Positions 33,245-47,703 of a stretch of DNA of 64,000 bases are shown one piece after another. The translations under genes were made by a program, and so were the position numbers. The notes beneath the pieces were generated by a model that did not search any database, was not told where the DNA came from, and worked only from the letters and a program-made list of their open reading frames with translations. Within the stretch, counting starts at the first letter, position 1; each line of letters opens with the position of its first letter. The DNA is from Candidatus Doudnabacteria bacterium (GTDB lineage: Bacteria > Patescibacteriota > Doudnabacteria > UBA920): positions 139,915 to 203,914 of the forward strand of contig CAWINB010000001.1 in assembly GCA_963837465.1 (NCBI GenBank), given 5' to 3'.

Positions 33245-33445
33245 ATGCAAAATACTATTGGAGACAACATTAAAAAGAGACGTCTAAAACTCAAACTATC
33301 TCAAGAAGAGTTTGCCCAAAAGTCCGGCGTTAAATATACAACTCTAACAAAAATTGAGAGCGGGGTCATTAAAACTCCTTCGGTTTTAATTGCTGCTAAA
33401 ATAGCAAAAGGCCTAGCAATTTCTATTGAGGAGTTAATAAAGTAA
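33245..33445 (+). CDS. XRE-family HTH transcriptional regulator
   Basis: 66 aa; canonical HTH_3 (LSQEEFAQKSGVKYTTLTKIE). Confidence 0.75.
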   Translation: MQNTIGDNIKKRRLKLKLSQEEFAQKSGVKYTTLTKIESGVIKTPSVLIAAKIAKGLAISIEELIK

Positions 33446-33589
33446 CTTCTACAATTTTTTTATCAGGGAGCCCATAGCCTAAAGCTGCGCGAACTGGGAG
33501 GGTGGGTTAGCGGCTTTTCATTACTTAATTTTTTTGTTTCCTCTGCGTCTTGCGTTCTTGCGCCCTGCGTCCCCCAAAAAATCTTCCCT

Positions 33590-33709
33590 GGTTCCGAACC
33601 TGCTTTTAAAAAATCAAAAAATTGAATTTGTCCCACAAACACAATGGGCTGCCCTTAAGGCAGCCCTTGTGAACAAATCTAAATTGTCTGAAAGTTTGGT
33701 CTTGGTACC
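33590..33709. repeat. IR-a, copy 2 (inverted); gives rise to a 72-aa chimeric ORF at 33534–33752
   Basis: Near-identical inverted copy of 31663–31790; abuts IR-b at ggta/ccc. Confidence 0.8.
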
Positions 33710-34061
33710 CTTATTCGATATTTTACAAACCTATTATACCCAAAACAGCTGACCTTGGCTACCCTAAAACAGCTCTTGCTTAGGGCTGTTTTTTGATTTA
33801 AAATGGGGGTACAAACTAGTTGAACAGCTAGTTGAATCCGGGTTCAACTAGTAAAGTTCCTAAACACCCTAATTCCATTACCTTTTCTTAAACCACAAAC
33901 CTTGACTATCACCACGATTTCCACTGGCAGACAAAGAAAAATAATGGAAAGAAATACTAACTACTAAAATACTTAAAATACTACTATCTATATACTCTAA
34001 AAATATACTAAAATACCAAACTAAAAACTAACCAAAAACAGAAACAAAACAGGGTGCAAAA
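33706..34061. repeat. IR-b, copy A (~357 bp)
   Basis: Exact reverse complement of 45832–46189 over its full length as far as could be read. Confidence 0.85.
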
Positions 34062-34116
34062 TGGGGGTGGAAAAATTTTTGTGTCTTAACCGCCGCGATG
34101 AGCGGCGGGACAGGGG

Positions 34117-36909
34117 GTGGAAAAAACTAAGTTTGCTTTTATGTCAATCCCAAAACTCGCCTTGGCTTATCCGACAACTCACCCTGTAGCCCACAAAGTT
34201 CTATCCCCCGCAGCTAGCACCAAGGGTGCCGATTTTTTCACCGGTCCCCTGTATGCCAGTACCATTGGCAACCTTCCTGCGTGGGAGCGGACGACTTCAA
34301 ACATAGCGGGCTGCCTGTTCCTCGTAGTGATTGGCTACACTGTGCTCCACAAACTTGGCTTCTTCCCCAAACACGCCTTTGAAAAGATAAAGCTAAAAAG
34401 CAAGGACGTAGACAAATGGCTAGAGAACACTGTGTACTTTGAAATCACCATCCCCAAGAACTCCCAGGCCACGGCCTTTCAAATCCAGCAAAAGATATTA
34501 AAGGCCTTCCACTCAATATATATTGATCCGGTGGAAGGCGCACATAACTTTAGCAGCCTTTGGGAGTTTGTCTACTACTTCCAAAAGCTCTGGAGAAGAA
34601 GCAAAGTCAAACGCTCCCAAAAGACTTTCTTTAGTATGCAAATCTGGGCCCAGCACCCGTTCATTTCTTTTAGGCTCCAAGTCCACGAAGCTGACTTTAC
34701 CCGGGTGGAAAAAGCCATTTTTAACGCCTACCCAGCGGCAGAGATTACCATGTTAGACAAGTCCCAACCCCTTAAGGAAATTACCCAATTTTCCCAAGAC
34801 TTTTTAGCATATGGGGAGACAACTATAGAGGGGCCATTTTACCACAGACTGAAAACCTTTAAGGACGTATCTAGCGAGCCTGTAGATTCTATGGTCTCGG
34901 TCATGGAAGGCCTAAAGAAGGGCGAGTTTATGGTCTACAATGTCCTAATTTCTCCCTCTTCCCATTACTTTAACCAAATCCTCCATTACCTCATAGAAGA
35001 GCAGGAACAAATGGGAGCGGTAGATATGGGCAGACGCAGGTTGACTATCCAAAAGCGGGGCTCAGGCTCGGAATTGGCCAACGCTTTAAACTCGGCCATG
35101 ATTGAAAAGATGAAAGCTCCACTGTTCCAAACCATAATATCCTACTGGACGATAGCCGAAACCAAGAACGAGGCTGAGAATAAACTCCGCAGCATCCAAG
35201 GGGCTTTGACCGAGCTGAACCAAAAAAATATGAACACGCTTAAGTCTAAGCTGCTGTTTACCAAGCAGGTACAGAAACTTGAGCGTAAGGGCAAGCTGGC
35301 TGGCATAGTCAGCCAAAAGCCGGTGTTCAAGTTAAGACGTTTTCCGTTTTGGCCCTTTGCTAAGTTTAAAAACTATGGGCAAAAAATTTCTGACGGGGAG
35401 CTTTACTCCTTTTGGCATTTGCCTAATACCCAAGATGGGACGGTATCGTCCATTAACCTAACCAGATTTAAAAAGCTCCCGGCCAGTCAGCAAATCAGGC
35501 GCTACCCTAAGGACTTCTTTCTGTCCTTAGGCCATAGTAATTTCCGTATGCAGGATAACGCCCCCATTGGCATTGCCACTTGGGATGACTTAAAAAAGCA
35601 CGTTTACATCTTAGGGGGAACAGGAGCGGGGAAGTCCGAAACCTTGAAAACTATCTTAAATAGCCTGTTACAAAAACAAGGCCAGGAAAAGTGTGCCCTG
35701 CTCATCGTCGACCCCAAGAATGACTTTGCCACGGATTTGCTAACTATGATACCGGAAGACCGCAAAGCTGACGTAGTATATTTTAACCCCCAGAGACAAA
35801 AAGACCGCCCGTTGGCTTTTCCGTTCTTCTCCAAGTTTTCAGGACAAAAGACCGATGACGAAAAACTGGAGTTTTTAATCTCCATAATGAAAAGGTTTGT
35901 CCAGATAGATTCCGCTTTTTCCTGGGGGCCGGAGCTCGAAAATATCCTGCGCCAATTATTTGCTACGGCCTACATACTGCCCCAGCAGTCCCTGTCCGGC
36001 CTTGACCTGCTCCTGCACCAACCCGAGCAAATCGGCAGGATGATTCCCTTTTTACCCCCAAGACTTCAAAACTTCTGGTCTAACTCCATATTAAAGCGCA
36101 GCAGCAATGATTTGGCTAAGTATCTAGCCACTACCAACAACAAGCTGGGTAAGTTTTTGGATTACCCGGAGTTTATGAATATCGTGGACAGGCAAAACAC
36201 TAAAATTTCCTTTGAGGATATGATTAACCAAGGCAAGATATTTATCGCAAACCTTGGCTCCAGTAGCGAGCAGATGAAAAAATATTATTCTGTTTATCTC
36301 TCTGCCCACATTGCCGAGGCTATCTTTGGGCAGGCCAGACTTTCCAGCGAAAACAGAAAACCCACGGTCTTTGTGGTGGACGAGTTTCAAAGGGTGGCCA
36401 GTGATATCTTTGAAACCCTATTTTCCGAAGTTAGAGCTTTCAATACTGCTTTGGTAATCAGCAACCAATTCATGGGACAATTAGACCCAAGAATCCAAAA
36501 ATCCATAGAGTCCAACATTGCCACTAAAATCTTTATGCGTACCCAGTCGGTGGATGACGCAGAGATTGCCGAAAAGATTTTAGGCGGCAAGGCCTTAGTG
36601 GAGGACATTATCAACCTGCCCACTGGCACGGCTTACATTAAAACCTTAGTTTCGGGTGTGCCGCAGGACGCAATGTCGATAAACATTAAAAAGACCGAGC
36701 ACCACAGGGAAAACGCCAAAGAAACCGAGGATTATTTTATTCAGCAGACTATGGAAAAATACGGCACGCCGCAGGACGATATTATCTGGGAACGCACCGC
36801 CGTAAATTCCATATACTATTCAGGTGACAACGAGGAACAGTTTAGTAAAGCTATGAGTCAAAAAAAGACGACTGCCGAGACGGCAGGTGAAGCGGAGAAG
36901 CAGCCTTAA
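34117..36909 (+). CDS. Membrane-anchored P-loop ATPase, TraD/VirD4/TcpA-like (AAA-like/DUF87) conjugative coupling-type protein
   Basis: N-terminal TM helices; Walker A ILGGTGAGKSE; Walker B VFVVDEFQRV; 930 aa. Confidence 0.5.
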   Translation: MEKTKFAFMSIPKLALAYPTTHPVAHKVLSPAASTKGADFFTGPLYASTIGNLPAWERTTSNIAGCLFLVVIGYTVLHKLGFFPKHAFEKIKLKSKDVDKWLENTVYFEITIPKNSQATAFQIQQKILKAFHSIYIDPVEGAHNFSSLWEFVYYFQKLWRRSKVKRSQKTFFSMQIWAQHPFISFRLQVHEADFTRVEKAIFNAYPAAEITMLDKSQPLKEITQFSQDFLAYGETTIEGPFYHRLKTFKDVSSEPVDSMVSVMEGLKKGEFMVYNVLISPSSHYFNQILHYLIEEQEQMGAVDMGRRRLTIQKRGSGSELANALNSAMIEKMKAPLFQTIISYWTIAETKNEAENKLRSIQGALTELNQKNMNTLKSKLLFTKQVQKLERKGKLAGIVSQKPVFKLRRFPFWPFAKFKNYGQKISDGELYSFWHLPNTQDGTVSSINLTRFKKLPASQQIRRYPKDFFLSLGHSNFRMQDNAPIGIATWDDLKKHVYILGGTGAGKSETLKTILNSLLQKQGQEKCALLIVDPKNDFATDLLTMIPEDRKADVVYFNPQRQKDRPLAFPFFSKFSGQKTDDEKLEFLISIMKRFVQIDSAFSWGPELENILRQLFATAYILPQQSLSGLDLLLHQPEQIGRMIPFLPPRLQNFWSNSILKRSSNDLAKYLATTNNKLGKFLDYPEFMNIVDRQNTKISFEDMINQGKIFIANLGSSSEQMKKYYSVYLSAHIAEAIFGQARLSSENRKPTVFVVDEFQRVASDIFETLFSEVRAFNTALVISNQFMGQLDPRIQKSIESNIATKIFMRTQSVDDAEIAEKILGGKALVEDIINLPTGTAYIKTLVSGVPQDAMSINIKKTEHHRENAKETEDYFIQQTMEKYGTPQDDIIWERTAVNSIYYSGDNEEQFSKAMSQKKTTAETAGEAEKQP

Positions 36910-36955
36910 TTTTTTTCAAATTTAATTTTAAAATTTTTACTCATTTAAAACAAAT

Positions 36956-37837
36956 ATGGAACTTCAACTGACCCCGCGACAGGAACTTAAAGCCTACAAC
37001 ATCAGGCTCAACCAAGGCACCTTGGAAATTTTGACTTTGGTGTTTGAATTTAAAATTGCGGCAGCGTGGCACATTTCCAGGCTTCTGTCCGGGCGTGACC
37101 AAAGCAAGTATGTTTATCTCAAGCTCCGCCGGATGTGGCAGGCTGGCTACTTGGACAGCTTTAAACTATTTACCGGCTCTATGGCAGGAGTGCCTTTGTA
37201 CTACATGCTCTCAAAATCTGGCCTAAAAGTTTTACTTAAAGAAAACCTCTACAGTCCTAGCCAAATATCCAAGTACCCGTCTCCCCAGATTTTGTTTTCT
37301 TCCGGGCTATTTGAGCATGAAAAGGATGTGGTGGAACTGGCCAGCAAGGAAGCCAAAAATCAGACCAAGGATTTAAAGATTAAGTTTAAGGGCGAGATAG
37401 CCTCTCAAGGCACGGACTTTATGGACGACAAGACCATTGAAGCCTTAACCCCCGACTATACGGTGCTATATACTTATCCAAACCAAACACAAATCGTTTA
37501 CAGCGAACTGGAACGCACCCAAAAGGGCAAGCAGGCCATGCTCCGCAAGGTAGAGCGTTACAAAAATTTCCTGAAACCCGAGCAGCTTAAAAACAGAACT
37601 TTAAGGCTTATTTTTCAAACGCCAGAAATGGAAGCCAGCTTTTGGCTGAACATTTATACTAACCGACCCGGGCTTTTAAATACCATTAGGCTAGTAACCA
37701 CCAATACTTTACTGCTTAAAGACCATAACAAATTTGTGGAAGAAATTTATGCTACCCACAAAACAATTAAGCTATCCAAGCCTGTGAGGTTAGTAGTAGA
37801 CACTTCTAAAAGGATAAAGCTGTTTGAGTTTTTGTAA
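36956..37837 (+). CDS. Hypothetical protein, possibly replication-relaxation family (winged-helix N-terminus)
   Basis: Weak resemblance only; adjacent to the coupling-type ATPase. Confidence 0.3.
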   Translation: MELQLTPRQELKAYNIRLNQGTLEILTLVFEFKIAAAWHISRLLSGRDQSKYVYLKLRRMWQAGYLDSFKLFTGSMAGVPLYYMLSKSGLKVLLKENLYSPSQISKYPSPQILFSSGLFEHEKDVVELASKEAKNQTKDLKIKFKGEIASQGTDFMDDKTIEALTPDYTVLYTYPNQTQIVYSELERTQKGKQAMLRKVERYKNFLKPEQLKNRTLRLIFQTPEMEASFWLNIYTNRPGLLNTIRLVTTNTLLLKDHNKFVEEIYATHKTIKLSKPVRLVVDTSKRIKLFEFL

Positions 37838-37952
37838 AGACGTTAGGTTAAAAAATTTTAATCAGTTTTTTAACGCCCAAACTAATTGCTCTATTATCTT
37901 ATCGCCCATGAATTTAGCCACCCTTTTCAGAGTGGCTAAATCTTGTATAGGA

Positions 37953-38114
37953 TTAAACTTCAAAGTATTTTTTGATGTTTAAATTGCTGGGGCCGCAACC
38001 CGGACAGGTAACGGTGTCCAGGTCAATGACTTCTTCCCGGCTGGCGCTCCAGCAATTCTGGCAGTTAGGGCAAGTGATTAAATACTGAAAGTAAGCTGTT
38101 AGTGTTTTTAGCAT
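37953..38114 (-). CDS. Small zinc-ribbon protein (53 aa; CPNC...CPGC)
   Basis: Translated by hand from the minus strand; too short for the ORF track; two CxxC pairs. Confidence 0.35.
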   Translation of the reverse strand: MLKTLTAYFQYLITCPNCQNCWSASREEVIDLDTVTCPGCGPSNLNIKKYFEV

Positions 38115-38224
38115 TGTTTTAAAGTTAGTTGTTTAAGAAAGATTTTTGTTTTGGTATTAGTTTAAATTGTGTATCATTCTCCTTTCCTTTGGCTTAATTA
38201 TCATGGCCAAATAGCACTGGCCGA

Positions 38225-38320
38225 AAGTTTTAGGTGTCAACGGGATTGAAAATATTTTATGCCCCACGGGAAATAAATTATTTTCACCCTTGAGCATCCT
38301 AAAAACCGGACAGTATAATG
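38225..38320. repeat. Promoter-bearing ~96 bp repeat, copy 1 (ggtgtcaacggga...tataat)
   Basis: Shares ggtgtcaacggga, the tttatg stretch, gataaa and the -35/-10 layout with 39603–39698. Confidence 0.5.
38290..38319 (+). promoter_or_regulatory. Sigma70-like promoter (TTGAGC-18-TATAAT) inside repeat copy 1, upstream of the 229-aa ORF
   Basis: -35 and -10 hexamers read directly. Confidence 0.45.
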
Positions 38321-38379
38321 AGGGCAGATAAGGAAGCAAAGGAAAAGCTGTTCCCATTTAGTTTTATTTTTGATATATT

Positions 38380-39069
38380 TTGAACATGAATACATTACCA
38401 ACAATGCACACTGGCGGAGTAGAATTTTTTAGGTTTGCCGACCTGCAGTCGCTAGACGAGGCCAGGTATTTTGAATGCATGGATTCGCTAAGGCCGCTTT
38501 TTGAAAATCCTGATTTCAAAAATTCAACCCCGGGGTTTTACATAAACTACATTTCCAACCAGCCGGACGACGGCTTAATTTCCTTACGCCTAACTTACTA
38601 CACCATCGACCCTGCCAAAACCCAAGAGAATATAACAAAATTTGTTAGCAATAACAAAAACGGCCTCGCTCTGTTTGACTCCAAATGGACTGGTCGTCCC
38701 GAAGCAAATCAAATTTTGAGCATGCCCGAAAAGGAGGAGATGGATTTTAGAAATTTTTTAAACCGCAATACCCAAATCGCTTTAGAGGTATTAAAAAGTT
38801 TTGGGGTAAAACAATTTCGGGACTTAGTTTTAAACTATCGCCATAGGCAATTACTGCAAGGAGTACCACCCGCGGTCATCTTTAAGCAAGTCTTTGAACA
38901 GCATAGCGGCTATTACAGCCAGCTAAAAAAAGACTTCTTGGCAAGCGAATATTGGACTGGCTTGATCCGACTTTTCCATGGGCAAAATCCAGGGCTACAT
39001 TTTTTGGTAAATATGCTAGCCTTACCTGAAGCCCAATATTATTCAGCTTCTCCCGAAGCCATTTTATAA
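38380..39069 (+). CDS. Hypothetical protein (229 aa)
   Basis: No recognised domain. Confidence 0.4.
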   Translation: MNMNTLPTMHTGGVEFFRFADLQSLDEARYFECMDSLRPLFENPDFKNSTPGFYINYISNQPDDGLISLRLTYYTIDPAKTQENITKFVSNNKNGLALFDSKWTGRPEANQILSMPEKEEMDFRNFLNRNTQIALEVLKSFGVKQFRDLVLNYRHRQLLQGVPPAVIFKQVFEQHSGYYSQLKKDFLASEYWTGLIRLFHGQNPGLHFLVNMLALPEAQYYSASPEAIL

Positions 39070-39073
39070 TTTT

Positions 39074-39556
39074 CTACATCAGCCCTTTATCTCTAAAGCT
39101 GGCATAAAATTCAGCTGTTACAATCACGTGATCTAAAACTTCTATGCCAAGAAGTTTTCCGGCATCTTTCAGACGCTTGGTAACTGCGAGGTCTTCGTCA
39201 GATGGCTCCAGACTGCCGCTGGGATGGTTGTGAGCAACAATCACTGAGCAGCAGTTTTTTAATATAGCTGTCCTGAATGTTTCCCTTGGATGAATTAAGC
39301 TGGCGTTTAATGTGCCAATGCTTATTACTTCCTTACCTGTTATTTTGTTTTGAGTGTCAAGAAAAAAGACGCAAAAGTATTCTTTTTTAGCTTTTCTGAA
39401 ACTCTTGCATTTTTCAGCCACTTGAGCTGGGCTGTAAACACCTTCTGGCATAGGCTTAATTTGCAAGTTTTCGTTAACATAATTTTTGGCTTTTTCGTTA
39501 GCCTCGGATTCGTTCTCCGCGGTAAACTGATAATTGATGTTAATTTGGTATTCCAT
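39074..39556 (-). CDS. RadC-like JAB/MPN-domain protein
   Basis: JAMM motif HNHPSGSLEPSDED, conserved Ser and Asp; 160 aa. Confidence 0.85.
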   Translation of the reverse strand: MEYQININYQFTAENESEANEKAKNYVNENLQIKPMPEGVYSPAQVAEKCKSFRKAKKEYFCVFFLDTQNKITGKEVISIGTLNASLIHPRETFRTAILKNCCSVIVAHNHPSGSLEPSDEDLAVTKRLKDAGKLLGIEVLDHVIVTAEFYASFRDKGLM

Positions 39557-39602
39557 AAAACTCCTTTTTGTTTACTTGTTATGGAGCAAGCAAACCGACC
39601 GC

Positions 39603-39698
39603 AGGTTTTTGGTGTCAACGGGACTAAAACCGATTTTATGGCTTACGGCAGATAAAGAGGTTTTACCCTTGCACACCCAAAAAACGGCCGGTATAATC
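39603..39698. repeat. Promoter-bearing ~96 bp repeat, copy 2 (TTGCAC-17-TATAAT), followed ~70 nt later by a terminator
   Basis: As copy 1; near-consensus sigma70 spacing. Confidence 0.5.
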
Positions 39699-39767
39699 TA
39701 AAACCCACAAGGAAACAAAAAGTTTTTGGTTTAAATTGGCGCGCCTAATGCTTTATCATTGAAATAG

Positions 39768-39799
39768 AAAAAACCATCCAGCAAATTGGATGGTTTTTT
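39768..39799. terminator. Bidirectional rho-independent terminator (aaaaaaccatccagcaaattggatggtttttt)
   Basis: Perfect 8 bp stem with A- and T-tracts on both sides; lies 3' of the giant minus-strand gene. Confidence 0.7.
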
Positions 39800-39835
39800 C
39801 TTACGCGCTCGAGCGAGGACGTTTTTGTAGTTCTT

Positions 39836-42800
39836 TTACTTTAGGCTGTTAATAAAGTTCCGGGTTAAGGTATCTAGCGCGCCAGTAGCGGCACTAATAC
39901 CGATTTGAGTTTTGTATTGGCTCTGAAATTTCTTTAAAGCGGCTTTGGTTGCAAGACCAAACAAAGTGGTTTCGTGGCCTGGGGAGCCAATTACTCCATT
40001 TGGCGCGACTGGGAAATTATTTTGGTTTAAAAATTGCTGCAAGGCAGTGACGTCTGCGCCTTTGCTTAAGTAACCAAGATTTCTGGCAAAGGTCATGGAC
40101 GGAGGAACGAGGCCGGTTGCCTGATTGGTTGCAGAAGTAGCAGAACTGGAAGTTTGACCCAGTATTTGGCCAGCAATTTGAGATTGTATTGTGTAAGGGG
40201 CTTTAGTGCCTTTTAGTACGGTTAACTTCTCCCCACTCTGGCCTTGGTAGGTTTGGAAGCTTGAAAAAGTATCAAAAGGATACAAACCACTTGGCTTAAC
40301 CAGGTAAATGGTAGGATTTCCTTTAAACTGCAATAACTGCCCATCGTGAACATTATAGGGCAGAACTATGGTAACAGTACTTGGGTTATTGGTAGTTGGT
40401 AGGGTAATCCCTATGGGTGGAAATGGTAATGTCTGTGGTGGGGTTGATGTAGGGGTGGAAGTTGAAGCAGGTGGCAAGGTTACCACAGTTCCTGCCGCGG
40501 CTAGAGTGGTAAATATGTAATCCCCTGAGGCATTAAACTGTAAGTTAGGGTCTTTAACCCTAAAATGGTAAGTGGTGGCAGGGTTTAGGCTGGTTAGGGC
40601 AAGACTGTGGTTTGTTACAGATGTAGAACTGGAAACTATGGAGCCGTAACTATTAGTTAAACCATAGTCTATGGCAGAGCCAATTTGGTAATTAGTCTGC
40701 CAAGTAACAATGGTTGATGTTGCCGTTGTGGAAGCAACCGTAACATTACTAAAGCTGGCATAGGTCGCTCCGCCTCCGCCTCCTGAGCTGACAACATTGG
40801 TAGTGCAGGAAACGGATACATTGGTAATGTTAGATGAGGCTACTGTACCGGTGCCGTTAGTGATATTGCAAGTCTGGCCGGACGGCTGAGTTAAAACCGT
40901 GACGCTATATGTACCGCCGGTGCTAGTGGCCGTGGCGAAAATAAAGCTAGTATTAGTTGTGGTGCTTATATTATCCCCGCCATTGTTTTGCAAAACCACG
41001 GTGCCGGTTAAGCCAGAAATACTGCCGCCAATTGTGTAAGTTGGATTATTGGAACACGAAACTGAAACATTGCTAACATTTGCCGAAGACACTGTACCGC
41101 TGCCGTTAGTTACATTACAGGTCTGTCCAGAAGGCTGCGTTAAAACCGTAACGGAGTAACTGGCACTATTATTTAAAGCTGTAGCAAAAGTAAAAGTACC
41201 ATTAGTCGAAGTGCTATAGTTATCGCCACCGTTATCTTGCAACACCACTGTACCCGAGAGACCCGATATGGTGCCGCCGATAGTGTAAGTTGTTAGCGCT
41301 ACATATTGATACGCGCCCATGTCCCAAGGTCCTGTTGTTGGTCGACTATTGCCAGCCGCATCGGTTGTGGGCAGCCCTGCTGATGTTAATACACTAGTAA
41401 GATTTGTTCCTGTTTGGTAGGCTGGCGAAGCAGAGGAAGATAATTGTAAATTGGTAGAACTAATAAATTTTGGATCCGCGTTAGCCCCGTGTGACTCTTG
41501 ACTATTACAGGTCGCAGATAAATATAAGGGCCAATTTCCCCAGCAACCAGTCAACCCGGTCAAACGAACTGGATTACTTATATTTGTCCATCCATAAAAA
41601 TCATCATAATCAGATGACCAACCTGCGGTGGTGGTTGCGTCTTCAGAATATATAGCAGCTTGAGAGCCAGCGAAAATGTTATTCCTAACAGTGAGACTGG
41701 GAACAGGCCCGCCTGCAAGGCCAGCTGTTATAAGTCCTTGCCAAGCAGCCTGGGGGCTACTGGTGTCCATGTTGAAAGAATTATTATAAATATAGGCTTG
41801 TCCACCAGGAACAGTATAAATATTCATATAATTCATCTCAATCACAGTTCCTCCATTTGAAGCGGAATCCCATCCATGATTATTATAAATGTAGACCGGT
41901 CCTGCCGTACCAGAAAAATACATAAAAGCAGTCACGCCAGTTTCCGCAGGAGGATTGGCTCCAGAGGTGGAAATACTAGAAGATTGTGTCCAGCTTGTAC
42001 CCGTTGTTATTGGCGTGGAATTTTGTTTATAAAGCGTACTGCTCTCCCCCGCGGTACTAAAATACACATTCCATCCTGAAACTGGTGAACATTCCGGAGG
42101 AGAAGAAACTTGGATGGCCTGATTCGGAGCGGATGTGGTAATTGAAGCCTCGGGAGAAAAATTACTTTCACTTACGCCTACGCAGGTCGTCTCAACATAA
42201 TAAGTTCCAGCAACAGGAGCTGCTCCGGAAACACTAATAAGCGCTGGCGTAGTTGTTGGGAACTGTACATAGTTGCTCCAGTTCCCATAAAAATAATTAT
42301 TATAAATAAACTCATTTGTAGTGTAAGACGATGGGTCGTTTGACACAGAAGAGAAAGTAAAAATACCGTCAGTATGATATCCCGCGCTGGCCATCTGATT
42401 GTGAAAATCGTGAATTAAGTTATCATGAATAGATACCCCATTTATTACGGTATTGGCATAAGGAGTTGAGATTGCGATACCCCACGTACAGTTTGAAATA
42501 TCGTTGCCACTAAATGTGATGTTTTGTAACGTTTTTGAAGTACCGTCACCGGGTCGGTAATAAATAGCAATCCTTGCGTATACTGACAAAACCATATTCT
42601 TCACTGTTATATTTGAGCTGGAGCCTTGAATTACGACAGCTTCATTGCCTTGGTTTATTCCTACCACTCCGATATTTTGCAGTTGTAGATTGTCCATTGT
42701 AATATATGAGCCCGTGATCAAAAAGTACCCGTTCATTTGCGAAGGAGATACGGTATTTTGGCTTCCTCCATCAAAAATAGGCCGTGTCCAAGAACCTCCT

Positions 42801-45229
42801 GAATACCAGCTTTTGTTTATACCATAATAATCCGGCGTCCCGGATGCTCCAGAATTAGTTATATTCCACGGTGCAATAGTGTTATCCCAAGTTATTCCAC
42901 CCCTGAATATAAATTGGTCGCCAGGATTATGTGTGTAGGTTCCGGAAAATCCCTGCATACCAGGCGCGCGCTGCCAGGGCGTGGAGGTAGAAGTCCCATT
43001 ATTTGAGTCACTTCCGTTTTGAAAATCAATATAATAAATTCTTGCCTGTGTTGTTGCAGTTGCTGTAGTGCTGCTCGCAGATGTATTTCCAATTGCATCA
43101 AAAGCATCCACATAATAACTATAAGTGGTGCTGGCATTAAGTCCGGTGTCAGAATAAGAGGTTAGCGAGGTAGTGGCTATGTGTAAATTGTTTCGGTAGA
43201 TATCATAACCGGTCACGCCAACATTATCCGTAGAGGCGTTCCAAGTAATATTAATTTGGCTGGCGGATGTTGTTGAAGCGGTAAGGCTAGCGGGAACGGA
43301 TGGAGGCTGAGTATCTATATAAAATGTGCCATCAGTCGTGGTGGCAACATTACTTTGGGCATCAGTTGAGGAAATTTGGTAATGATAGGTGGTATTATTA
43401 GTAAGACCGGTTAAGGTAATGGAATGGCTAGTCACCAGAGCCGGAGTGGACGAAGACGAACCATAACCTGAACTAGTACCATAATTTATTAGCGAGTTAG
43501 CGGAATGATTTGTGGTCCAGCTAAAAGTGGCCGTGGATGATGCGGTGGTAGTGGAAACACCTGAAATTATAATCGGATTTTCAATATTGACCGTCGTTGA
43601 GGCGGTGGAAGTATTGCTTGAGGTATCGGTAGATAAAGCCCAGAGAGTGGTTGAGCCATTGGCAACAGCAGTTGTGTTCCAAAGTATGGAATAAAGATTA
43701 CCACTTGGGGTAGTAGTTGAATTTATTAGAGTACTGGAGGCAAATGTGCCGCCATAACTCCCGTAGTAGAAAGCCACGCTCCCTACCGCTACGTTATCTG
43801 TAGAAGAAGCGGTTAAGGTAGTCGAACCTGAAATAAGGGCGTTATTGGCAGGAGAAGTCCAGGCAACATTAGGAGCCGTAAGGTCTGGCACAAAATATTG
43901 GTCAGCGCCAATGTCCCATGTACTGCCGCGGCTTTGACCGTCTATGTCTGTGGTAAAATTTAATGGAGATGAATCACCAGAAGTATTAGTACCCACACCT
44001 TTTAGAGCCGAACCAGATGTTATGTGATAATCTTCACTCCCAGGAGTAACATTTATAAATGTGGCAGTGCTGGTAGCAATTCCGGTTAAGCCTGCTGTTC
44101 CACTAGCATCTCGACTTGCACAGGTGGTTTTTGTAATCGTCCCAAAATAATCACTAAGCGCCCCTCCGCCAGCATAAGTGTTTTTGCATACTACTGTTCC
44201 GCCCGTTTGCCTTATGCCAACACGGGCATTAATCACAGTTGAGCTATAAATGTTAACGGAATTTGAACTGCTTGTAAGAATCCCAGTCTCGTTAGATAAA
44301 TTTGGTACAAAGTTGAATAGGATTGTATTCCAAATATTTACTTTAGCATTTGCAGCACTAATATTTATACCGTTTTGATTATAGGTTGGGTCACCGCTTG
44401 CTTTAATAATAGAATTTGATAAATCGGCTTCGTTAAATGCGCCATTATCCAAAAAATTTAAAATATTGCGGTTTACGACTGTAGGACTTACATTTGTTAA
44501 TTGTAATCCATCTAGTTTTATAAAGTCTATGCTTCCAACGTTGATAGCATAATTATCCGTCGGTGACAAATACCATTTAGTTGTATCCCATTTTCCGGCG
44601 GCTCGCTGGCTTTGATTGACTTCAGCCGTAGTGCTTGTTGGTGTATAAATTCGAATGTAATGGGTAGCATCGGTGGTTAAACTTTGAGCATTCACTCCTG
44701 TTGTGTCCGGTCCGGTATCATAATAAACAGGAACATTCAAAACCACATCAGCGGAAACAAGGCTTGTGGTCGCTATATGATTAGTATCAGAAGCCTTAGG
44801 CGTTCCATTGAATACATTGTTCAAACTAGAAAATGCGTGGGCAATAGAATTTACAGTGGCGTTACTTACATTACTGCAAGGAGCGCCCAGGGCTGTAACT
44901 AAATTCCAGACAGAAGTGGATGTTTTAGAAGCTATGTAACAGATGGAAGAAGTGTTAAAGGTGACCTGATCTCCTACACCGAGGTTGGTGGCAGTCTGAG
45001 CATAGTTGAAAGTAGCTTGCCCCGCTCCTCCGGCAATAGTCATGGTGCAGGCACCCGTGGTTGAACAAGTGGCTCCTCCAGCTCCAATACTATGGTCGCT
45101 GGTATTTTGCCCGACAGAATAATATACATTGGCCGTGGCAGAGGCTTTCCCAGCCAGAGAAAAACCACACCCTATAAACACCACAAAAAATGCCAGTAAG
45201 GTTAATTTGTTTTTTAAAAATTTAGTCAT
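39836..45229 (-). CDS. Giant secreted surface protein (1797 aa): signal peptide, parallel beta-helix (pectate-lyase-like) region, Ig/FN3-like repeats, C-terminal peptidoglycan-binding domain
   Basis: N-terminal signal/TM (LLAFFVVFIGCGFSLAG); repeated TYTIGG(T/S)ISGL(S/T)GTVVLQ(D/N)NGGDN modules; beta-helix style N..I..N repeats; C-terminal GADVTALQQFL...PNGVIG...T..A..KFQ (PG_binding_1-like). Confidence 0.8.
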   Translation of the reverse strand: MTKFLKNKLTLLAFFVVFIGCGFSLAGKASATANVYYSVGQNTSDHSIGAGGATCSTTGACTMTIAGGAGQATFNYAQTATNLGVGDQVTFNTSSICYIASKTSTSVWNLVTALGAPCSNVSNATVNSIAHAFSSLNNVFNGTPKASDTNHIATTSLVSADVVLNVPVYYDTGPDTTGVNAQSLTTDATHYIRIYTPTSTTAEVNQSQRAAGKWDTTKWYLSPTDNYAINVGSIDFIKLDGLQLTNVSPTVVNRNILNFLDNGAFNEADLSNSIIKASGDPTYNQNGINISAANAKVNIWNTILFNFVPNLSNETGILTSSSNSVNIYSSTVINARVGIRQTGGTVVCKNTYAGGGALSDYFGTITKTTCASRDASGTAGLTGIATSTATFINVTPGSEDYHITSGSALKGVGTNTSGDSSPLNFTTDIDGQSRGSTWDIGADQYFVPDLTAPNVAWTSPANNALISGSTTLTASSTDNVAVGSVAFYYGSYGGTFASSTLINSTTTPSGNLYSILWNTTAVANGSTTLWALSTDTSSNTSTASTTVNIENPIIISGVSTTTASSTATFSWTTNHSANSLINYGTSSGYGSSSSTPALVTSHSITLTGLTNNTTYHYQISSTDAQSNVATTTDGTFYIDTQPPSVPASLTASTTSASQINITWNASTDNVGVTGYDIYRNNLHIATTSLTSYSDTGLNASTTYSYYVDAFDAIGNTSASSTTATATTQARIYYIDFQNGSDSNNGTSTSTPWQRAPGMQGFSGTYTHNPGDQFIFRGGITWDNTIAPWNITNSGASGTPDYYGINKSWYSGGSWTRPIFDGGSQNTVSPSQMNGYFLITGSYITMDNLQLQNIGVVGINQGNEAVVIQGSSSNITVKNMVLSVYARIAIYYRPGDGTSKTLQNITFSGNDISNCTWGIAISTPYANTVINGVSIHDNLIHDFHNQMASAGYHTDGIFTFSSVSNDPSSYTTNEFIYNNYFYGNWSNYVQFPTTTPALISVSGAAPVAGTYYVETTCVGVSESNFSPEASITTSAPNQAIQVSSPPECSPVSGWNVYFSTAGESSTLYKQNSTPITTGTSWTQSSSISTSGANPPAETGVTAFMYFSGTAGPVYIYNNHGWDSASNGGTVIEMNYMNIYTVPGGQAYIYNNSFNMDTSSPQAAWQGLITAGLAGGPVPSLTVRNNIFAGSQAAIYSEDATTTAGWSSDYDDFYGWTNISNPVRLTGLTGCWGNWPLYLSATCNSQESHGANADPKFISSTNLQLSSSASPAYQTGTNLTSVLTSAGLPTTDAAGNSRPTTGPWDMGAYQYVALTTYTIGGTISGLSGTVVLQDNGGDNYSTSTNGTFTFATALNNSASYSVTVLTQPSGQTCNVTNGSGTVSSANVSNVSVSCSNNPTYTIGGSISGLTGTVVLQNNGGDNISTTTNTSFIFATATSTGGTYSVTVLTQPSGQTCNITNGTGTVASSNITNVSVSCTTNVVSSGGGGGATYASFSNVTVASTTATSTIVTWQTNYQIGSAIDYGLTNSYGSIVSSSTSVTNHSLALTSLNPATTYHFRVKDPNLQFNASGDYIFTTLAAAGTVVTLPPASTSTPTSTPPQTLPFPPIGITLPTTNNPSTVTIVLPYNVHDGQLLQFKGNPTIYLVKPSGLYPFDTFSSFQTYQGQSGEKLTVLKGTKAPYTIQSQIAGQILGQTSSSATSATNQATGLVPPSMTFARNLGYLSKGADVTALQQFLNQNNFPVAPNGVIGSPGHETTLFGLATKAALKKFQSQYKTQIGISAATGALDTLTRNFINSLK

Positions 45230-45315
45230 CGTAAAAAAATAAAAAGCCCGTCAAAAACGGAGCTTAATTAGAAATATTAAGTTTGTATAATCGCAAAACT
45301 GGCGAGCGTGTTTTA

Positions 45316-45337
45316 CTCTCTCTCTCTCTCTCTCTCT
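45316..45337. repeat. (CT)11 dinucleotide microsatellite in the 5' region of the giant surface-protein gene
   Basis: ctctctctctctctctctctct read directly, ~90 nt upstream of the start at 45229 (minus strand). Confidence 0.9.
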
Positions 45338-45364
45338 GCTAGCGCGTTTAAGATTTTGGACATT

Positions 45365-45667
45365 TTAGTTTTTTTCTGGTAATTTTTGTAAGGCTCGGGC
45401 TTTAATCTCTTCTAGGGTGTCGGCCGGTACTGACTTGCCGAGAATCCTTTCAGCCAGTTCCAGCATTTTATTTAAGCTTGGTTGACTTTTAAATTTATCC
45501 GCTATGATTTCCTGAGCACCTTCTTGGGCAGGAGTTTTATCCTCAACAGTTATCCCGGATAAGTGAAGCATTGAGACATAGGCGGATAAAAGTCTGGCAC
45601 ATTCTTCCAGATAAGCCGGGCTGTCTTCGGGCTTAGGGACCAATTCTAGTCTATTAGGATAATCCAT
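45365..45667 (-). CDS. Hypothetical protein (100 aa)
   Basis: No recognised domain. Confidence 0.4.
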   Translation of the reverse strand: MDYPNRLELVPKPEDSPAYLEECARLLSAYVSMLHLSGITVEDKTPAQEGAQEIIADKFKSQPSLNKMLELAERILGKSVPADTLEEIKARALQKLPEKN

Positions 45668-45831
45668 AATTACTACAGCTCTTTATACAAATATTATAGT
45701 ATATTTTACGATTTAAAGCCAGGATTGACTAAGTATTAGATTTGCTAGACATTTTGGGCCTTGTTTATTGGTCAGTTTTCCCGTATTTTTCTATGTTTTT
45801 TGCTTTTCTCCACCACCCCCACCCCCCCTGT

Positions 45832-46189
45832 TTTTGCACCCTGTTTTGTTTCTGTTTTTGGTTAGTTTTTAGTTTGGTATTTTAGTATATTTTTAGAGTA
45901 TATAGATAGTAGTATTTTAAGTATTTTAGTAGTTAGTATTTCTTTCCATTATTTTTCTTTGTCTGCCAGTGGAAATCGTGGTGATAGTCAAGGTTTGTGG
46001 TTTAAGAAAAGGTAATGGAATTAGGGTGTTTAGGAACTTTACTAGTTGAACCCGGATTCAACTAGCTGTTCAACTAGTTTGTACCCCCATTTTAAATCAA
46101 AAAACAGCCCTAAGCAAGAGCTGTTTTAGGGTAGCCAAGGTCAGCTGTTTTGGGTATAATAGGTTTGTAAAATATCGAATAAGGGTACC
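45832..46189. repeat. IR-b, copy B (inverted); overlaps the last 30 codons of the second recombinase
   Basis: Reverse complement of 33706–34061. Confidence 0.85.
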
Positions 46190-47703
46190 ATCGGCGATTT
46201 TAGAGCGGGTTGCAATCAGATCGAAGGGAGAACTCGGCGTGATCTCCAGGAGTTTTCCGTTCAGTACCCGGTTCGAGGTCAGAGAATCTACCATTTCGCG
46301 TTTTTCCGGCATGATGCCGACTTTGTACGCTGAATACGCGGTGTTCGCGCGTTCGAGAATTTCTAGCAGCTCATCGGCGACATTGCGGTTGCCGCTTTCC
46401 CAGCCAGAGAGTGTTTCCGACGTTTCCAGGCGCTCCGTGAGGAGCGCCGTTTTTCGTTGCTCGAACAGATCCTTTTCGACCAGCCGGTCGATGTAGGCAT
46501 CGGTGAGGCGGTTCAGCCGGTCGTCAATCTGGCCGAGCTTCAGCTTGAGGGCGGCGATGGCATCCTCGGTTTGCTTGTGACTGTCAGCTTTCAACCGGCG
46601 GAGTTCCTGCCAGCAGTATTGCTGCTCATCGGGAAGCAGCCGTAGTTGAAGGAGGGTTTCGAGAAATGAATTCTCGGCAACCTCTTCCCGGATCGCTGTT
46701 GTGGGACACTCGCGAGTTTGGCAGCGGTAGTAGACGAACCCCTTGTGAGTTTCGCCGATCAGGGTATGGCCGCAACCTTTGCAACTCAGCCTGCGGCGAA
46801 ACAGAAAATCATGGCGGTTGGTCCGCGTGTTGGTTTTTCCGTGGAGCACATCCTGGACGCGCTGAAAGAGCGCCTTGGAGATTAGAGGCTGGTGAGCTCC
46901 GAGGAAGGACTGACCGGAAACCTTGATGTGGATGAGGCCCATGTAGAAAGTATTGTTCAGCAATTTGGTCAGGCCGTTCATGGTGACCTGCTTGCCACTG
47001 CGCCCGCGCAAGCCGATGCGTTCGGCTTCGTGAAGTAGATCGTGAAAATTGGCCGTGCCGGTGGAATACTTTTCAAACAGATGGCGCACCAGGGGCGCAG
47101 TCTTGGGGTCTGGCTCCTTAGGTTTGCCGCTGCTGATGTTCCGATACCCCAGCGGGGCTGGCATGGGCAATATGCCTTGCTTGAGCCGTCCATAGAATCC
47201 CTTCTTGGTTTCTTCTTTGAGGTTGCGGATGAAATCGGATGCCACAACCGCTTGGATGTCCGCCGAGAGTCGTCCGCCGCGAGAATTGAGGTCCAGACCT
47301 TCGTTGGCGAAGTGGACTTCGACGCCACGGTCGATGATTTCGCCGAGGTCAGCCCAATCCTTGAGGTTGCGGGCGGAGCGGTCGATCTTGTGAATGACCA
47401 CACCGCGAACCGTGCCAGATCTCAGCCGCCTGATCATCTGGGTGAACACCGGGTGTCGGACGGCAAGAGGAAGCCATCACAGTCCCAGCAATCCGGCGTA
47501 GTCGCTCCGGGTGGCAACACGTACGGGGAAGTATCGAAAATAGACCGCTCCCTCTCATGCTTCGGGCCGTAAACGACCAAGTGCTCTGCGGTCTGATTTG
47601 TGCACTGGCCCCAGCCGCGTCCGCGGAGAATACGGAATGGCGGACGAATCAGGTCTCCATAATCCAGATCGAACAACAGCATGTCCTCCGCTCGGCACTT
47701 CAT
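46097..47703 (-). pseudogene. Second large serine recombinase with a disrupted N-terminal catalytic region
   Basis: The 450-aa ORF (46097–47449) starts inside the resolvase domain (GVVIHKIDRSARNL) and keeps the recombinase, zinc-ribbon (C..C...C...C) and coiled-coil parts. The upstream catalytic segment is scattered across three frames (...VRVATRSDYAGLLGL* ; ...DCDGFLLPSDTRCSPR*). Confidence 0.55.

What the first reader, a model, noticed from the sequence alone, without database searches (positions are those of the whole stretch)
33706..46189. 11.7 kb segment bracketed by ~357 bp perfect inverted repeats, each lying next to a serine recombinase
33706–34061 is the exact reverse complement of 45832–46189. 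The far copy contains the 3' end of the second recombinase. The near copy abuts the inverted copy of the first recombinase's 3' end. Inverted repeats this long and this similar, flanking a gene block and coupled to serine recombinases, suggest a large recombinase-invertible segment or a mobile element with unusually long terminal inverted repeats. The giant adhesin gene and a promoter-bearing repeat lie inside the segment.
Basis: seen in the sequence. Interest (0 to 1): 0.8.

Follow-up and report, generated by a model that had tools for sequence, protein, structure and literature searches.

The report
tRNA-inserted mobile element with spare inverted attP
The long inverted repeat is real; it is one attachment-site arm of a 14.5-kb mobile element inserted at the end of a tRNA-Glu gene plus an intact upside-down second copy of that site, an apparently undescribed layout shared by many relatives in ultra-small (Patescibacteria) bacteria.

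Summary
The repeat is confirmed: 33703-34061 and 45832-46190 are 359 bp, 100% complementary. It is half of a larger pattern. A second inverted pair (31663-31791 / 33575-33707, the 3' end of recombinase 1) abuts it. All three repeat junctions share the 5-nt core TACCA, the 3' end of tRNA-Glu(ctc).

Best reading: a 14.5-kb integrative element (31663-46190) was inserted by large serine recombinase 1 at the tRNA-Glu 3' end. attL is at 31663, attR at 46190. An intact, inverted copy of the element's attP lies at 33575-34070.

"Recombinase 2" is not a partner. It lacks its catalytic N-terminus and is the relic of an older element that the insertion pushed away from the tRNA.

The layout is family-wide. 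Among 139 non-redundant relatives, a tRNA abuts the recombinase 3' end in 78 of 103 testable loci (28 anticodons). The inverted copy of the gene's 3' end is present in 47 of 59 loci with enough flank. Ten loci show the second abutting pair.

The tRNA half-site and the element half-site share a GAAC motif offset by 4 nt, as in known serine-integrase attB and attP sites.

What the spare inverted attP does is unresolved. I found no evidence for a phase-variation switch. The architecture looks undescribed.

The parts
31593..31667 (+). tRNA-Glu(ctc). Its 3' end is the chromosomal (attB-type) half-site; the T-arm CGAAC lies at +15..+19 from the junction.
   Evidence: ARAGORN; Rfam tRNA, 60.6 bits; half-site logo.
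31663..31667 (+). S1 core TACCA: attL junction (tRNA | A arm).
   Evidence: Read directly from the sequence. The same 5 nt occur at S2 (inverted) and S3.
31663..31791 (-). A arm: the last ~45 codons of recombinase 1, serving as the element-side arm of attL. It contains a GC-rich hairpin at 31704-31724, 42 nt from the junction.
   Evidence: Inverted repeat with 33575-33707; hairpin.
31627..33153 (-). Recombinase 1: a complete large serine recombinase, 508 aa. Its last 12 codons read antisense through tRNA-Glu.
   Evidence: Pfam Resolvase + Recombinase + Zn_ribbon_recom; Ser11 invariant in the family alignment; translation.
33245..33445 (+). Xre-type HTH protein (66 aa), divergent from recombinase 1. 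The pairing recurs in relatives.
   Evidence: Pfam HTH_3, E=6.7e-16; the same gene pair in P0004's contig and in 7 loci by tblastn.
33575..33707 (+). A' arm: inverted, non-coding copy of recombinase 1's 3' end, identical to A for the first 84 nt from the core.
   Evidence: mismatch positions read from the sequence.
33703..33707 (-). S2 core (TGGTA on the plus strand): centre of an intact, inverted attP copy (A' | B).
   Evidence: S2 is exactly the element-side arm of attR + core + the element-side arm of attL, reverse-complemented.
33703..34070 (+). B arm (the near arm of the reported repeat). It holds the P-type half-site CAAACCTATTA at +19..+29, a terminator-like hairpin at 33766-33792, short iteron-like repeats at 33952-34039, and a promoter-like site at 33918-33945 facing the ATPase operon.
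34117..36909 (+). Cargo: 930-aa FtsK/HerA/VirD4-like DNA-translocase ATPase.
   Evidence: Pfam DUF87, TrwB_AAD_bind, FtsK_SpoIIIE, TraG-D_C. NCBIfam hits to CedD, TraD, VirD4-like and TraB are all below their cut-offs.
36956..39069 (+). Cargo: two ORFs of unknown function (293 aa at 36956-37837; 229 aa at 38380-39069).
   Evidence: No Pfam or NCBIfam hits.
39074..39556 (-). Cargo: RadC-like JAB-domain protein.
   Evidence: Pfam RadC, E=6.6e-43; NCBIfam.
39836..45229 (-). Cargo: 1797-aa surface protein (fn3, Big_7, peptidoglycan-binding domain).
   Evidence: Pfam.
45365..45667 (-). Cargo: 100-aa ORF, first gene downstream of the B' arm.
   Evidence: ORF list; no family hit.
45823..46190 (-). 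B' arm (the far arm of the reported repeat): the element-side arm of attR. Same content as B, facing the 100-aa ORF and the surface-protein operon.
46186..46190 (+). S3 core TACCA: attR junction (B' | relic of recombinase 2).
   Evidence: Sequence; GC step from 0.42 to 0.55 exactly here.
46191..47449 (-). Outside the element: recombinase 2 relic. It lacks about 56 N-terminal residues, including the catalytic Ser, and its native last 35 residues.
   Evidence: Pfam match starts at profile position 52. Intact homologs are 510 aa. Joining 46191 to the tRNA reconstructs ...KIADGSATENRTPI*, matching integrated homologs ...DGSATGNRTPI.

Best explanation
The window holds a 14.5-kb integrative element (31663-46190) that large serine recombinase 1 inserted at the 3' end of tRNA-Glu(ctc).

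The crossover lies within the 5-nt core TACCA. attL (S1, 31663) joins the tRNA to the recombinase gene's own 3' end (arm A). attR (S3, 46190) joins the element's other arm (B') to what used to lie next to the tRNA.

That former neighbour was the 3' part of an older, unrelated-clade recombinase gene (recombinase 2). Its element had used the same tRNA and is now a dead relic.

The element also carries an intact second copy of its attP region (A'.core.B, 33575-34070) in inverted orientation, between the recombinase/HTH module and the cargo. The reported 359-bp repeat (B/B') and the adjacent 113-133-bp repeat (A/A') are therefore the two halves of one duplicated attP region of about 490 bp. Integration has split one of the two copies.

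Shown here: the repeats, the shared core, the tRNA junction, the status of recombinase 2, and the family-wide recurrence.

Inferred: that recombinase 1 catalysed the insertion, and that excision would give a circle with two inverted attP copies.

Unresolved: what the spare copy is for. My favoured inference is that it is a conserved functional site whose arms are kept alike by recombination between them. The cargo block would flip freely (neutral), while the recombinase module is held in one orientation by selection. Under canonical rules the spare site remains available to any attB-type tRNA end.
For: 1. Three junctions share TACCA in the pattern expected of attL, inverted attP and attR: gcgc[TACCA]agacc, aggg[TACCA]agacc (reverse complement of S2), aggg[TACCA]tcggc.

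2. Recombinase 1 has the complete large-serine-recombinase domain set and the catalytic Ser.

3. Family recurrence. A convergent tRNA abuts the recombinase 3' end in 78 of 103 non-redundant loci (28 anticodons). Homolog C-termini are antisense-tRNA peptides.

4. Half-site logic over 54 loci. GAAC lies at +16..19 on the tRNA side and at +20..23 on the B side. This matches the 4-5 bp attB/attP offset of serine integrases (PMC11722253). The window's B arm fits (CAAACCTATTA at +19..29).

5. The inverted A' copy is present in 47 of 59 loci with more than 3 kb upstream. Arm length peaks at 150-169 nt (54 of 94 arms). The 50 nt nearest the core are two to three times better conserved than the middle.

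6. A second pair abuts A' with a 3-5 nt overlap in 10 independent assemblies.

7. The un-split form exists. L079 and L074 carry two intact inverted A.core.B copies flanking the recombinase module, with no tRNA at either copy and only accessory genes.

8. Recombinase 2. It is colinear with recombinase 1, and the two junctions align (aa 420 against aa 497). The reconstructed tRNA-fused tail matches integrated homologs at 10 of 11 residues. L162 shows that family at tRNA-Glu(ctc) with the same core.

9. GC steps from 0.42 to 0.55 exactly at 46190.
Against: - No empty site, circular junction or alternative orientation of this particular element could be found. Exact searches for the B arm found nothing in the metagenome and viral collections. 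The source contig's DNA could not be retrieved.
- The insertion target was not a virgin attB. It was tRNA | recombinase-2 arm, an attL of another element, which canonical serine integrases are not expected to use.
- If both attP copies were equivalent, both orientations of the recombinase module should be common. Yet the tRNA abuts the recombinase-proximal arm in 61 loci and the distal arm in 1.
- About a fifth of relatives with enough flank lack the inverted copy, and the recombinase 2 family lacks it. It is therefore not needed for integration, and it could be a tolerated duplication.
- Circularity of L079 and L074 was not shown.
- The cargo is not shared with relatives.
Confidence: 0.78

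Rival explanations
1. The 11.7-kb block is a recombinase-driven invertible (phase-variable, shufflon-like) segment. Flipping would switch expression of the giant surface protein or other cargo.
For: Perfect 359-bp inverted repeats flank the block, with a serine recombinase close by. B pairs are more similar than A pairs in 10 of 10 loci, which fits frequent exchange between B arms.
Against: - Both cargo operons, and both copies of their upstream B region, lie wholly inside the block. Inversion rewires nothing except the read-through tail of a dead gene.
- The recombinase is a 508-aa integrase type, not a ~190-aa invertase.
- The sites at the two ends are attP-type and attR-type, a pair that canonical serine integrases do not recombine.
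- Relatives carry unrelated cargo, including defence genes, in the same frame. In L015 the arms enclose only 373 bp.
Confidence: 0.08
2. Two nested, independently mobile units, each bounded by long terminal inverted repeats (A...A' of 2 kb; B...B' of 12.5 kb). Each would excise through its own two ends as a circle with a palindromic junction, like a serine-transposase element.
For: In the window the shared core contains the palindromic dinucleotide TA (GGTACC at S2), which would allow end-to-end joining. Many short contigs consist of just a recombinase module bounded by inverted arms (L004, L062, L081).
Against: - In L040 (core CACC) and L054 (core CTCC) the shared core has no palindromic dinucleotide. 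S2 is therefore truly inverted relative to S1 and S3, and end-to-end excision is chemically excluded there.
- The A and B half-sites are unrelated in sequence, so one recombinase would not treat both as the same kind of end.
- The B...B' unit has no recombinase of its own.
- The short contigs are what assemblers produce at any repeat longer than the k-mer.
Confidence: 0.05
3. The inverted repeat is an assembly artefact (chimeric or fold-back join).
For: Inverted repeats longer than the read or k-mer length are a known source of mis-joins. Many related contigs break at these arms.
Against: - The same two-pair geometry, with a 3-5 nt overlap at a tRNA-derived core, recurs in at least 10 independent assemblies. 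Their sequences, arm lengths and arm identities (94-100%) all differ.
- The arms end exactly at a biologically meaningful junction.
- The window's recombinase is recorded on a 699-kb contig.
Confidence: 0.02
4. The internal A'.B copy is a functionless leftover of a past rearrangement, merely tolerated and slowly decaying.
For: - A' has no coding role and is 85-93% identical to A in many loci.
- About 20% of relatives, and the whole recombinase 2 family, do without it.
- Orientation bias of 61:1 suggests it is rarely used for integration.
Against: - It is present in 80% of loci across a family whose recombinases have diverged to about 50% identity. Arm length is sharply defined (~160 nt).
- The 50 nt nearest the core are two to three times better conserved.
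- The B-side motif is conserved at fixed spacing.
- A GC hairpin sits 41-45 nt from the junction in 75 of 94 arms, with 35 different sequences.
- The two arms of a locus are 84-100% identical to each other while the recombinases themselves have diverged to about 50-60% protein identity. This implies ongoing homogenisation rather than decay; arm-to-arm identity between loci was not measured.
Confidence: 0.15

Closest known systems
Large serine integrase elements (prophages SPbeta, A118, phiC31, Bxb1; SCCmec with CcrAB)
   Same: - The same three-domain recombinase. The best NCBIfam similarities are CcrB and XisF, both below their cut-offs.
- A short common core.
- attP next to or overlapping the integrase gene.
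- A B-type against P-type half-site offset of 4-5 bp.
   Different: - The target is the extreme 3' end of tRNA genes, with 28 anticodons across the family. That is the classical habit of tyrosine integrases. In the one survey I read, the attB sites reported as overlapping t(m)RNA genes were all tyrosine-integrase sites (PMC10654092).
- The recombinase ORF runs across the crossover into antisense tRNA.
- A second, inverted, intact attP is kept inside the element.
Yeast 2-micron-type plasmids (FLP/FRT). Comparison from general knowledge, not tested here.
   Same: The predicted excised form, and the un-split contigs L079 and L074, have two long inverted repeats. Each repeat contains the recombinase's target. 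They divide the molecule into two unique segments, one of which encodes the recombinase.
   Different: - Serine recombinase, not tyrosine.
- The element integrates into a chromosome through one of the repeat-borne sites.
- No replicon was identified.
- attP x attP exchange is not expected for canonical serine integrases.
Phage P1 Cin / Mu Gin / Salmonella Hin invertible segments. Comparison from general knowledge, not tested here.
   Same: Inverted repeats lie inside the segment and end exactly at the crossover sites. P1's C segment also has repeats of several hundred base pairs. The Hin gene lies inside its invertible segment, as recombinase 1 lies between A and A'.
   Different: Those systems use small invertases that need an enhancer. 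Their inversion swaps gene ends or a promoter connection. Neither feature is seen here.
Recombinase 2 family: tRNA-Glu-targeting large serine recombinases on plasmid- or ICE-like contigs (L162-L165)
   Same: The same target logic. The crossover lies inside the recombinase gene's 3' end at a TGGTA core of tRNA-Glu(ctc), and integrated forms end in antisense-tRNA residues.
   Different: Only 26% identical to recombinase 1. The examples examined have a single attP and no inverted duplicate.

Membership tests
Large serine recombinase (integrase) integrative element | One ~450-600 aa protein with a resolvase catalytic domain, a 'recombinase' domain and a zinc-ribbon domain. | tested here: met
   Pfam PF00239 (E=1.6e-23), PF07508 (3.5e-17) and PF13408 (4e-8) in recombinase 1.
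Large serine recombinase (integrase) integrative element | Catalytic serine near the N-terminus. | tested here: met
   YARKS11TD. Ser11 is invariant in the 25-sequence alignment. Recombinase 2 lacks this region.
Large serine recombinase (integrase) integrative element | attL and attR share only a short core with each other; element-derived arms lie on the inner sides. | tested here: met
   A 5-nt TACCA core at 31663 and 46186. Cores differ between relatives and follow the tRNA end.
Large serine recombinase (integrase) integrative element | The outer (DBD2) recognition motif lies 4-5 bp closer to the centre in attB half-sites than in attP half-sites. | tested here: met
   GAAC at +16..19 (tRNA side) against +20..23 (B side) over 54 loci. 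Rule taken from PMC11722253.
Large serine recombinase (integrase) integrative element | Demonstrated integration and excision; directionality factor. | not testable with these tools
   No empty site or circle junction of this element was found. No candidate directionality factor was identified.
Hin/Gin/Cin-type invertase switch | Small (~190 aa) serine recombinase with a C-terminal HTH. | tested here: not met
   Recombinase 1 is 508 aa with integrase-type C-terminal domains.
Hin/Gin/Cin-type invertase switch | Inversion reconnects a promoter or alternative gene ends across the boundary. | tested here: not met
   All cargo ORFs and both B-arm upstream regions are internal. Only the non-native tail of the dead recombinase 2 crosses a boundary.
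Hin/Gin/Cin-type invertase switch | Both orientations coexist. | tested here: inconclusive
   Read data were not available. Among relatives the recombinase module is oriented 61:1. No pair of close relatives showed a clean flip.
2-micron-type inverted-repeat plasmid | A circle divided by two long inverted repeats, each carrying the recombinase target. | tested here: inconclusive
   The geometry follows from joining attR to attL. It is seen un-split in L079 and L074. Circularity and autonomous replication were not shown.
2-micron-type inverted-repeat plasmid | The recombinase exchanges the two repeat-borne sites. | not testable with these tools
   Canonical serine integrases synapse attP with attP but are thought not to recombine them.
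Transposon bounded by terminal inverted repeats with a serine transposase (IS607 / Tn4451 type) | The two ends recombine with each other to excise a circle, which needs the same core polarity at both ends. | tested here: not met
   S2 has the opposite core polarity to S1 and S3. The cores CACC (L040) and CTCC (L054) contain no palindromic dinucleotide.
Integrative conjugative or mobilisable element | Coupling protein or DNA translocase, relaxase, mating-pore genes. | tested here: inconclusive
   A 930-aa FtsK/VirD4/TraB-like ATPase passes the Pfam cut-offs. All NCBIfam equivalog scores are far below their cut-offs. No relaxase or pore genes were detected. Three cargo ORFs have no hits.

The most novel reading that the evidence does not exclude
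The conserved inverted second attP is a working part. Either (a) it makes the excised element a two-isomer circle whose recombinase, acting outside canonical attP x attB rules, flips the segments, for example for 2-micron-like copy amplification. Or (b) it keeps a live docking site inside the integrated element. That site could recombine with any other compatible tRNA 3' end, capturing tRNA-bearing DNA or driving rearrangements between tRNA genes. The tangled arrangements in L015, L034 and L076 hint at this.
Probability: 0.15. Interest if true: 0.85.

Novelty: new variant of a known kind. Interest (0 to 1): 0.6.

Why it matters
- It defines a large, apparently undescribed family of serine integrases in Patescibacteria. 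They target the 3' ends of many different tRNA genes through a T-arm motif, and their attP arm mimics that motif 4 nt further out. This is a natural series of retargeted serine integrases, relevant to genome-engineering tools. It is also relevant to genetics in a phylum that has almost none.

- It shows a conserved design for an integrative element, with a spare, inverted, intact attP. This has no counterpart among characterised serine-integrase elements and poses a clear, testable question.

- It explains why assemblies of these genomes break at these recombinase genes.

- It shows stacking of elements at one tRNA. These elements carry defence genes, a DNA translocase and a giant surface protein.

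Tried and rejected
- **Shared protein tail.** I asked whether the repeat encodes a C-terminal tail common to both recombinases. It does not: the reading frames differ across the junction.
- **B arm as a tRNA fragment.** It does not fold or align as one. Only the CGAAC motif is shared.
- **Exact 24-mer of the B arm.** No hits in the metagenome or viral collections.
- **Context look-ups.** Neither recombinase 1 nor its 90% homolog P0001 has a record, and P0004's contig has no DNA available.
- **Viral collection.** Nothing with the single protein, and nothing above 33% identity with a 25-sequence alignment. These elements are not recognised phages.
- **Flipped segments between close relatives.** L054 and L055 are colinear. 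The all-against-all search gave only two pairs. The L014/L110 difference cannot be reduced to a simple flip.
- **L076.** A tRNA abuts the distal arm, but the proximal arm is followed by neither a tRNA nor a canonical B side. I do not count it as a clean flipped isomer.
- **Cargo homologs in relatives.** Essentially none.
- **Literature.** Eight full-text searches found no description of serine recombinases targeting tRNA in Patescibacteria, or of inverted double-attP elements.
- **A-arm hairpin as a terminator.** This holds in the window, where a T-rich tail follows it. It does not hold generally: T content after the hairpin is 0.30 against 0.28 overall.

Full report
**1. Observation**

The reported inverted repeat is real. 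Self-BLAST of the window gives 33703-34061 against 46190-45832: 359 bp, 100% identity, no gaps. Ungapped extension gives 368 bp at 99%.

A second inverted pair lies directly beside it: 31663-31791 against 33707-33575 (133 bp at 95.5%; the core-proximal 113 bp at 98%). Its left arm is the 3' end of recombinase 1 (31627-33153, minus strand). That protein is a complete large serine recombinase with resolvase, recombinase and zinc-ribbon domains.

"Recombinase 2" (46097-47449, minus strand) matches the resolvase profile only from position 52. Nothing upstream supplies the missing catalytic region.

**2. Anatomy**

tRNA-Glu(ctc) occupies 31593-31667 on the plus strand. I call the arms A (31663-31791), A' (33575-33707), B (33703-34070) and B' (45823-46190).

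The three repeat boundaries are:
- S1: ...gtagcgc[TACCA]agaccaaac (tRNA | A)
- S2, reverse complement: ...gaataaggg[TACCA]agaccaaac (B' sequence | A sequence)
- S3: ...gaataaggg[TACCA]tcggcgatt (B' | recombinase 2)

This is the textbook pattern of attL, attP and attR sharing a short core, with one difference: the attP copy lies inside the element and is inverted.

The two inverted pairs are therefore the two halves of one duplicated attP region of about 490 bp. One copy has been split by integration into the tRNA end. The internal copy is pristine. B equals B' over 359 nt, and A' equals A for the first 84 nt from the core.

The element is 31663-46190 (14.5 kb). Its content:
- recombinase 1 and a divergent Xre-type HTH gene;
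- a 930-aa FtsK/VirD4-like ATPase;
- two ORFs of unknown function;
- a RadC-like protein;
- a 100-aa ORF;
- a 1797-aa surface protein

.

**3. What recombinase 2 is**

GC content steps from about 0.42 to 0.55 exactly at 46190 and stays high to about 58 kb. The left host flank and the element are both 0.40-0.47.

Recombinases 1 and 2 are only 26% identical but colinear to the end. The S3 junction (recombinase 2 aa 420) aligns with the S1 junction (recombinase 1 aa 497).

Intact homologs of recombinase 2 are 510 aa and continue ...ADG|SPRRDIHRT... past the junction. A second class of 486 aa ends ...DGSATGNRTPI. Joining 46191 directly to the tRNA-Glu end in silico gives ...KIADGSATENRTPI*.

One such homolog sits at a tRNA-Glu(ctc) gene with the same TGGTA core (L162).

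So recombinase 2 once abutted this tRNA as the end of an older, compositionally foreign element. The present element then inserted between them. The 31 codons that recombinase 2 "shares" with the repeat are read-through into element DNA.

**4. The family**

Two collection scans with recombinase 1 returned 160 loci, 139 of them non-redundant, almost all from Patescibacteria assemblies.

*tRNA targeting.* A convergent tRNA gene abuts or overlaps the recombinase 3' end in 78 of 103 loci that have downstream sequence. These cover 28 anticodons and 16 amino-acid specificities. Homolog proteins end in antisense-tRNA peptides such as RRIEP and GIEPTT.

*The inverted A' copy.* It is present in 91 of 139 loci, and in 47 of 59 with more than 3 kb upstream.
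- Median arm length is 160 nt; 54 of 94 arms fall in 150-169 nt.
- Median identity between arms is 93%.
- Mismatches run at about 2% in the 50 nt nearest the core, against 4-11% further in.

*The B pair.* In 10 loci with enough flank a second pair abuts A' with a 3-5 nt overlap, exactly as in the window. Many other contigs stop about one k-mer length beyond A', which would fit B being a repeat there too.

*The core.* The overlap is the tRNA's own 3' terminus and differs with the tRNA: TACCA, GAGC, AGC, CACC, CTCC.

*Un-split forms.* L079 and L074 show both A.core.B copies intact and inverted, with no tRNA at either. They carry only accessory or defence genes.

*Cargo.* It is not conserved between relatives.

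*Control family.* The recombinase 2 family uses the same kind of target but has no inverted duplicate in the examples examined.

**5. Mechanistic support**

I anchored 54 non-redundant loci at the junction and compared the half-sites.
- tRNA side consensus: Cc.......GGa.tcGAACC, with GAAC at +16..19. This is the T arm.
- B side consensus: ....T.ta..a.....C.cGaAC.taTTTca, with GAAC at +20..23.

The same motif lies 4 nt further from the crossover on the element arm. Structural work on large serine integrases states that the DBD2 motif lies 5 bp (4 bp in SPbeta) closer to the centre in attB half-sites than in attP half-sites. It also states that this offset is what makes the two site types functionally different (PMC11722253).

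The window's B arm fits the pattern (CAAACCTATTA at +19..29). This identifies the tRNA end as a B-type half-site and B/B' as a P-type half-site. It makes S2 a bona fide attP by sequence logic.

The same paper concludes that attP x attP synapses are probably blocked from recombining. Under canonical rules S2 would therefore be silent unless an attB-type tRNA end is offered.

**6. Other features of the arms**

- 75 of 94 A arms contain a perfect GC-rich hairpin of at least 7 bp, starting 41-45 nt from the junction. There are 35 different hairpin sequences. Only 2.4% of shuffled arms have such a hairpin.
- In the window this hairpin is at 31704-31724, with its inverted twin at 33646-33666. Both score as terminator-like and point into the recombinase module.
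- B and B' carry a second terminator-like hairpin 60-90 nt from the core. It is placed to stop a recombinase transcript that reads A then B. They also carry short iteron-like repeats, and a promoter-like site facing each cargo operon.
- Within every one of the 10 loci with both pairs, the B arms are more alike than the A arms.

**7. Interpretation and its limits**

The structural reading is well supported: an integrated element with attL, attR and a spare inverted attP, beside the displaced relic of an older element.

The role of the spare site is not established.

Points favouring a function:
- retention in about 80% of a family diverged to about 50% protein identity;
- a sharply defined arm length;
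- better conservation near the core;
- a fixed-position hairpin that covaries in sequence;
- arms within a locus that remain 84-100% identical while the recombinases have diverged to about 50-60% protein identity, which implies continuing exchange between them (arm identity between loci was not measured).

Points against an essential role:
- a fifth of members lack it;
- the tRNA abuts the recombinase-proximal copy 61 times and the distal copy once.

My working inference has three parts. Exchange between the perfect B arms flips the cargo block without consequence. Flips of the recombinase module are selected against. The spare attP remains competent.

A phase-variation switch is unlikely, because inversion rewires nothing. 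A terminal-repeat transposon is excluded where the core lacks a palindromic dinucleotide. An assembly artefact is excluded by recurrence in independent assemblies.

**8. Novelty**

Eight full-text searches found no description of serine recombinases targeting tRNA 3' ends in Patescibacteria, or of integrative elements with an inverted second attP.

In the one survey I read, 16 of 23 tyrosine-integrase attB sites overlap t(m)RNA genes, and no such overlap is reported for the six serine-integrase sites (PMC10654092).

I rate the finding a new variant of a known kind. The enzyme class and the integration chemistry are familiar. The target choice and the double-attP architecture are not.

Comparisons with 2-micron plasmids and with the P1 Cin, Mu Gin and Hin systems rest on my general knowledge. 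They are analogies of geometry, not claims of membership.

Noticed in passing
window 45316-45337: A perfect (CT)11 dinucleotide tract lies between the 100-aa ORF and the start of the 1797-aa surface-protein gene (start at 45229). A terminator-like hairpin follows at 45247-45261. This could be a slipped-strand phase-variation site for the surface protein.
   Followed up: no
window 46191-58000: A GC-rich block (0.52-0.55, against 0.45 for the host) begins with the dead recombinase 2. It carries a Pycsar-effector-like protein (48473-48988), a glyoxalase, an M23 peptidase, a Hypoth_Ymh protein and a SET-domain protein. Named recombinase 2 homologs at 65-68% identity are annotated as Bryobacteraceae; the hosts of the closest ones (89%) are not given. 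This suggests an old island acquired from a GC-richer donor.
   Followed up: partly
window 52475-52699, 54814-55424, 59120-59345, 59730-60237: A family of direct repeats. One pair (54814-55312 / 59730-60231) is 502 bp at 95%. There are also several 190-230 bp copies at 82-87%. Nature unknown.
   Followed up: no
window 29433-30480: An IS630-like transposase split into two ORFs: DDE_3 at 29433-29906 and HTH domains at 29983-30480. It lies just left of the tRNA cluster.
   Followed up: no
window 31704-31724 and 33646-33666; A arms of 75 of 94 related loci: A GC-rich perfect hairpin (median stem 8 bp) starts 41-45 nt from the crossover. It lies inside the recombinase coding sequence, where it encodes palindromic peptides such as WAALKAAL. 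There are 35 different sequences across the family. It could be a protein-binding palindrome, an RNA structure, or a terminator supplied for the tRNA gene.
   Followed up: partly
A arms of related loci, ~110-119 nt from the junction (window: 114 nt): A T-arm-like motif [TC]CG[AG]A[CT]C lies on the recombinase-sense strand in 52 of 94 arms. It coincides with the conserved peptide FGSN. A second copy lies at 210-229 nt in 55 of 94. It may be only protein-level conservation, or an accessory site.
   Followed up: partly
L015 5496-7126 and 11359-11979: A third inverted pair (5496-5657 / 11817-11979, 87%) abuts the distal B arm on one side and the 3' end of a second tRNA (tRNA-Glu(ttc), 11743-11815) on the other. 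The B arms here are 473 bp and enclose only 373 bp. This hints at exchanges involving two tRNA genes.
   Followed up: partly
L034 2245-2653, 5142-5549, 11487-11872, 15056-15441: Four copies (two direct, two inverted) of a ~350-400 bp B-like sequence. One follows the recombinase 3' end directly, with no tRNA. A 64%-identical HTH homolog and tRNA-Leu lie 3-4 kb downstream.
   Followed up: no
window 38188-38319 and 39566-39697: A ~100-130 bp direct repeat (70-75% identity) flanks the 229-aa ORF and RadC gene pair inside the cargo.
   Followed up: no
window 30991-31311 and 31537-31564: The spacers of the tRNA cluster hold short 7-9 nt tandem repeats and small inverted repeats. A perfect 12-bp-stem hairpin (ccgtcaaaggcg gatc cgcctttgacgg) lies just upstream of tRNA-Glu.
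   Followed up: no
L022, L032, L046, L131, L144 (downstream of the recombinase end): The sequence after the A arm looks like antisense tRNA (acceptor and T arm, GGATTCGAACC), but ARAGORN calls no tRNA. These may be intron-containing or unusual tRNA genes, so the count of tRNA-abutting loci is a lower bound.
   Followed up: no
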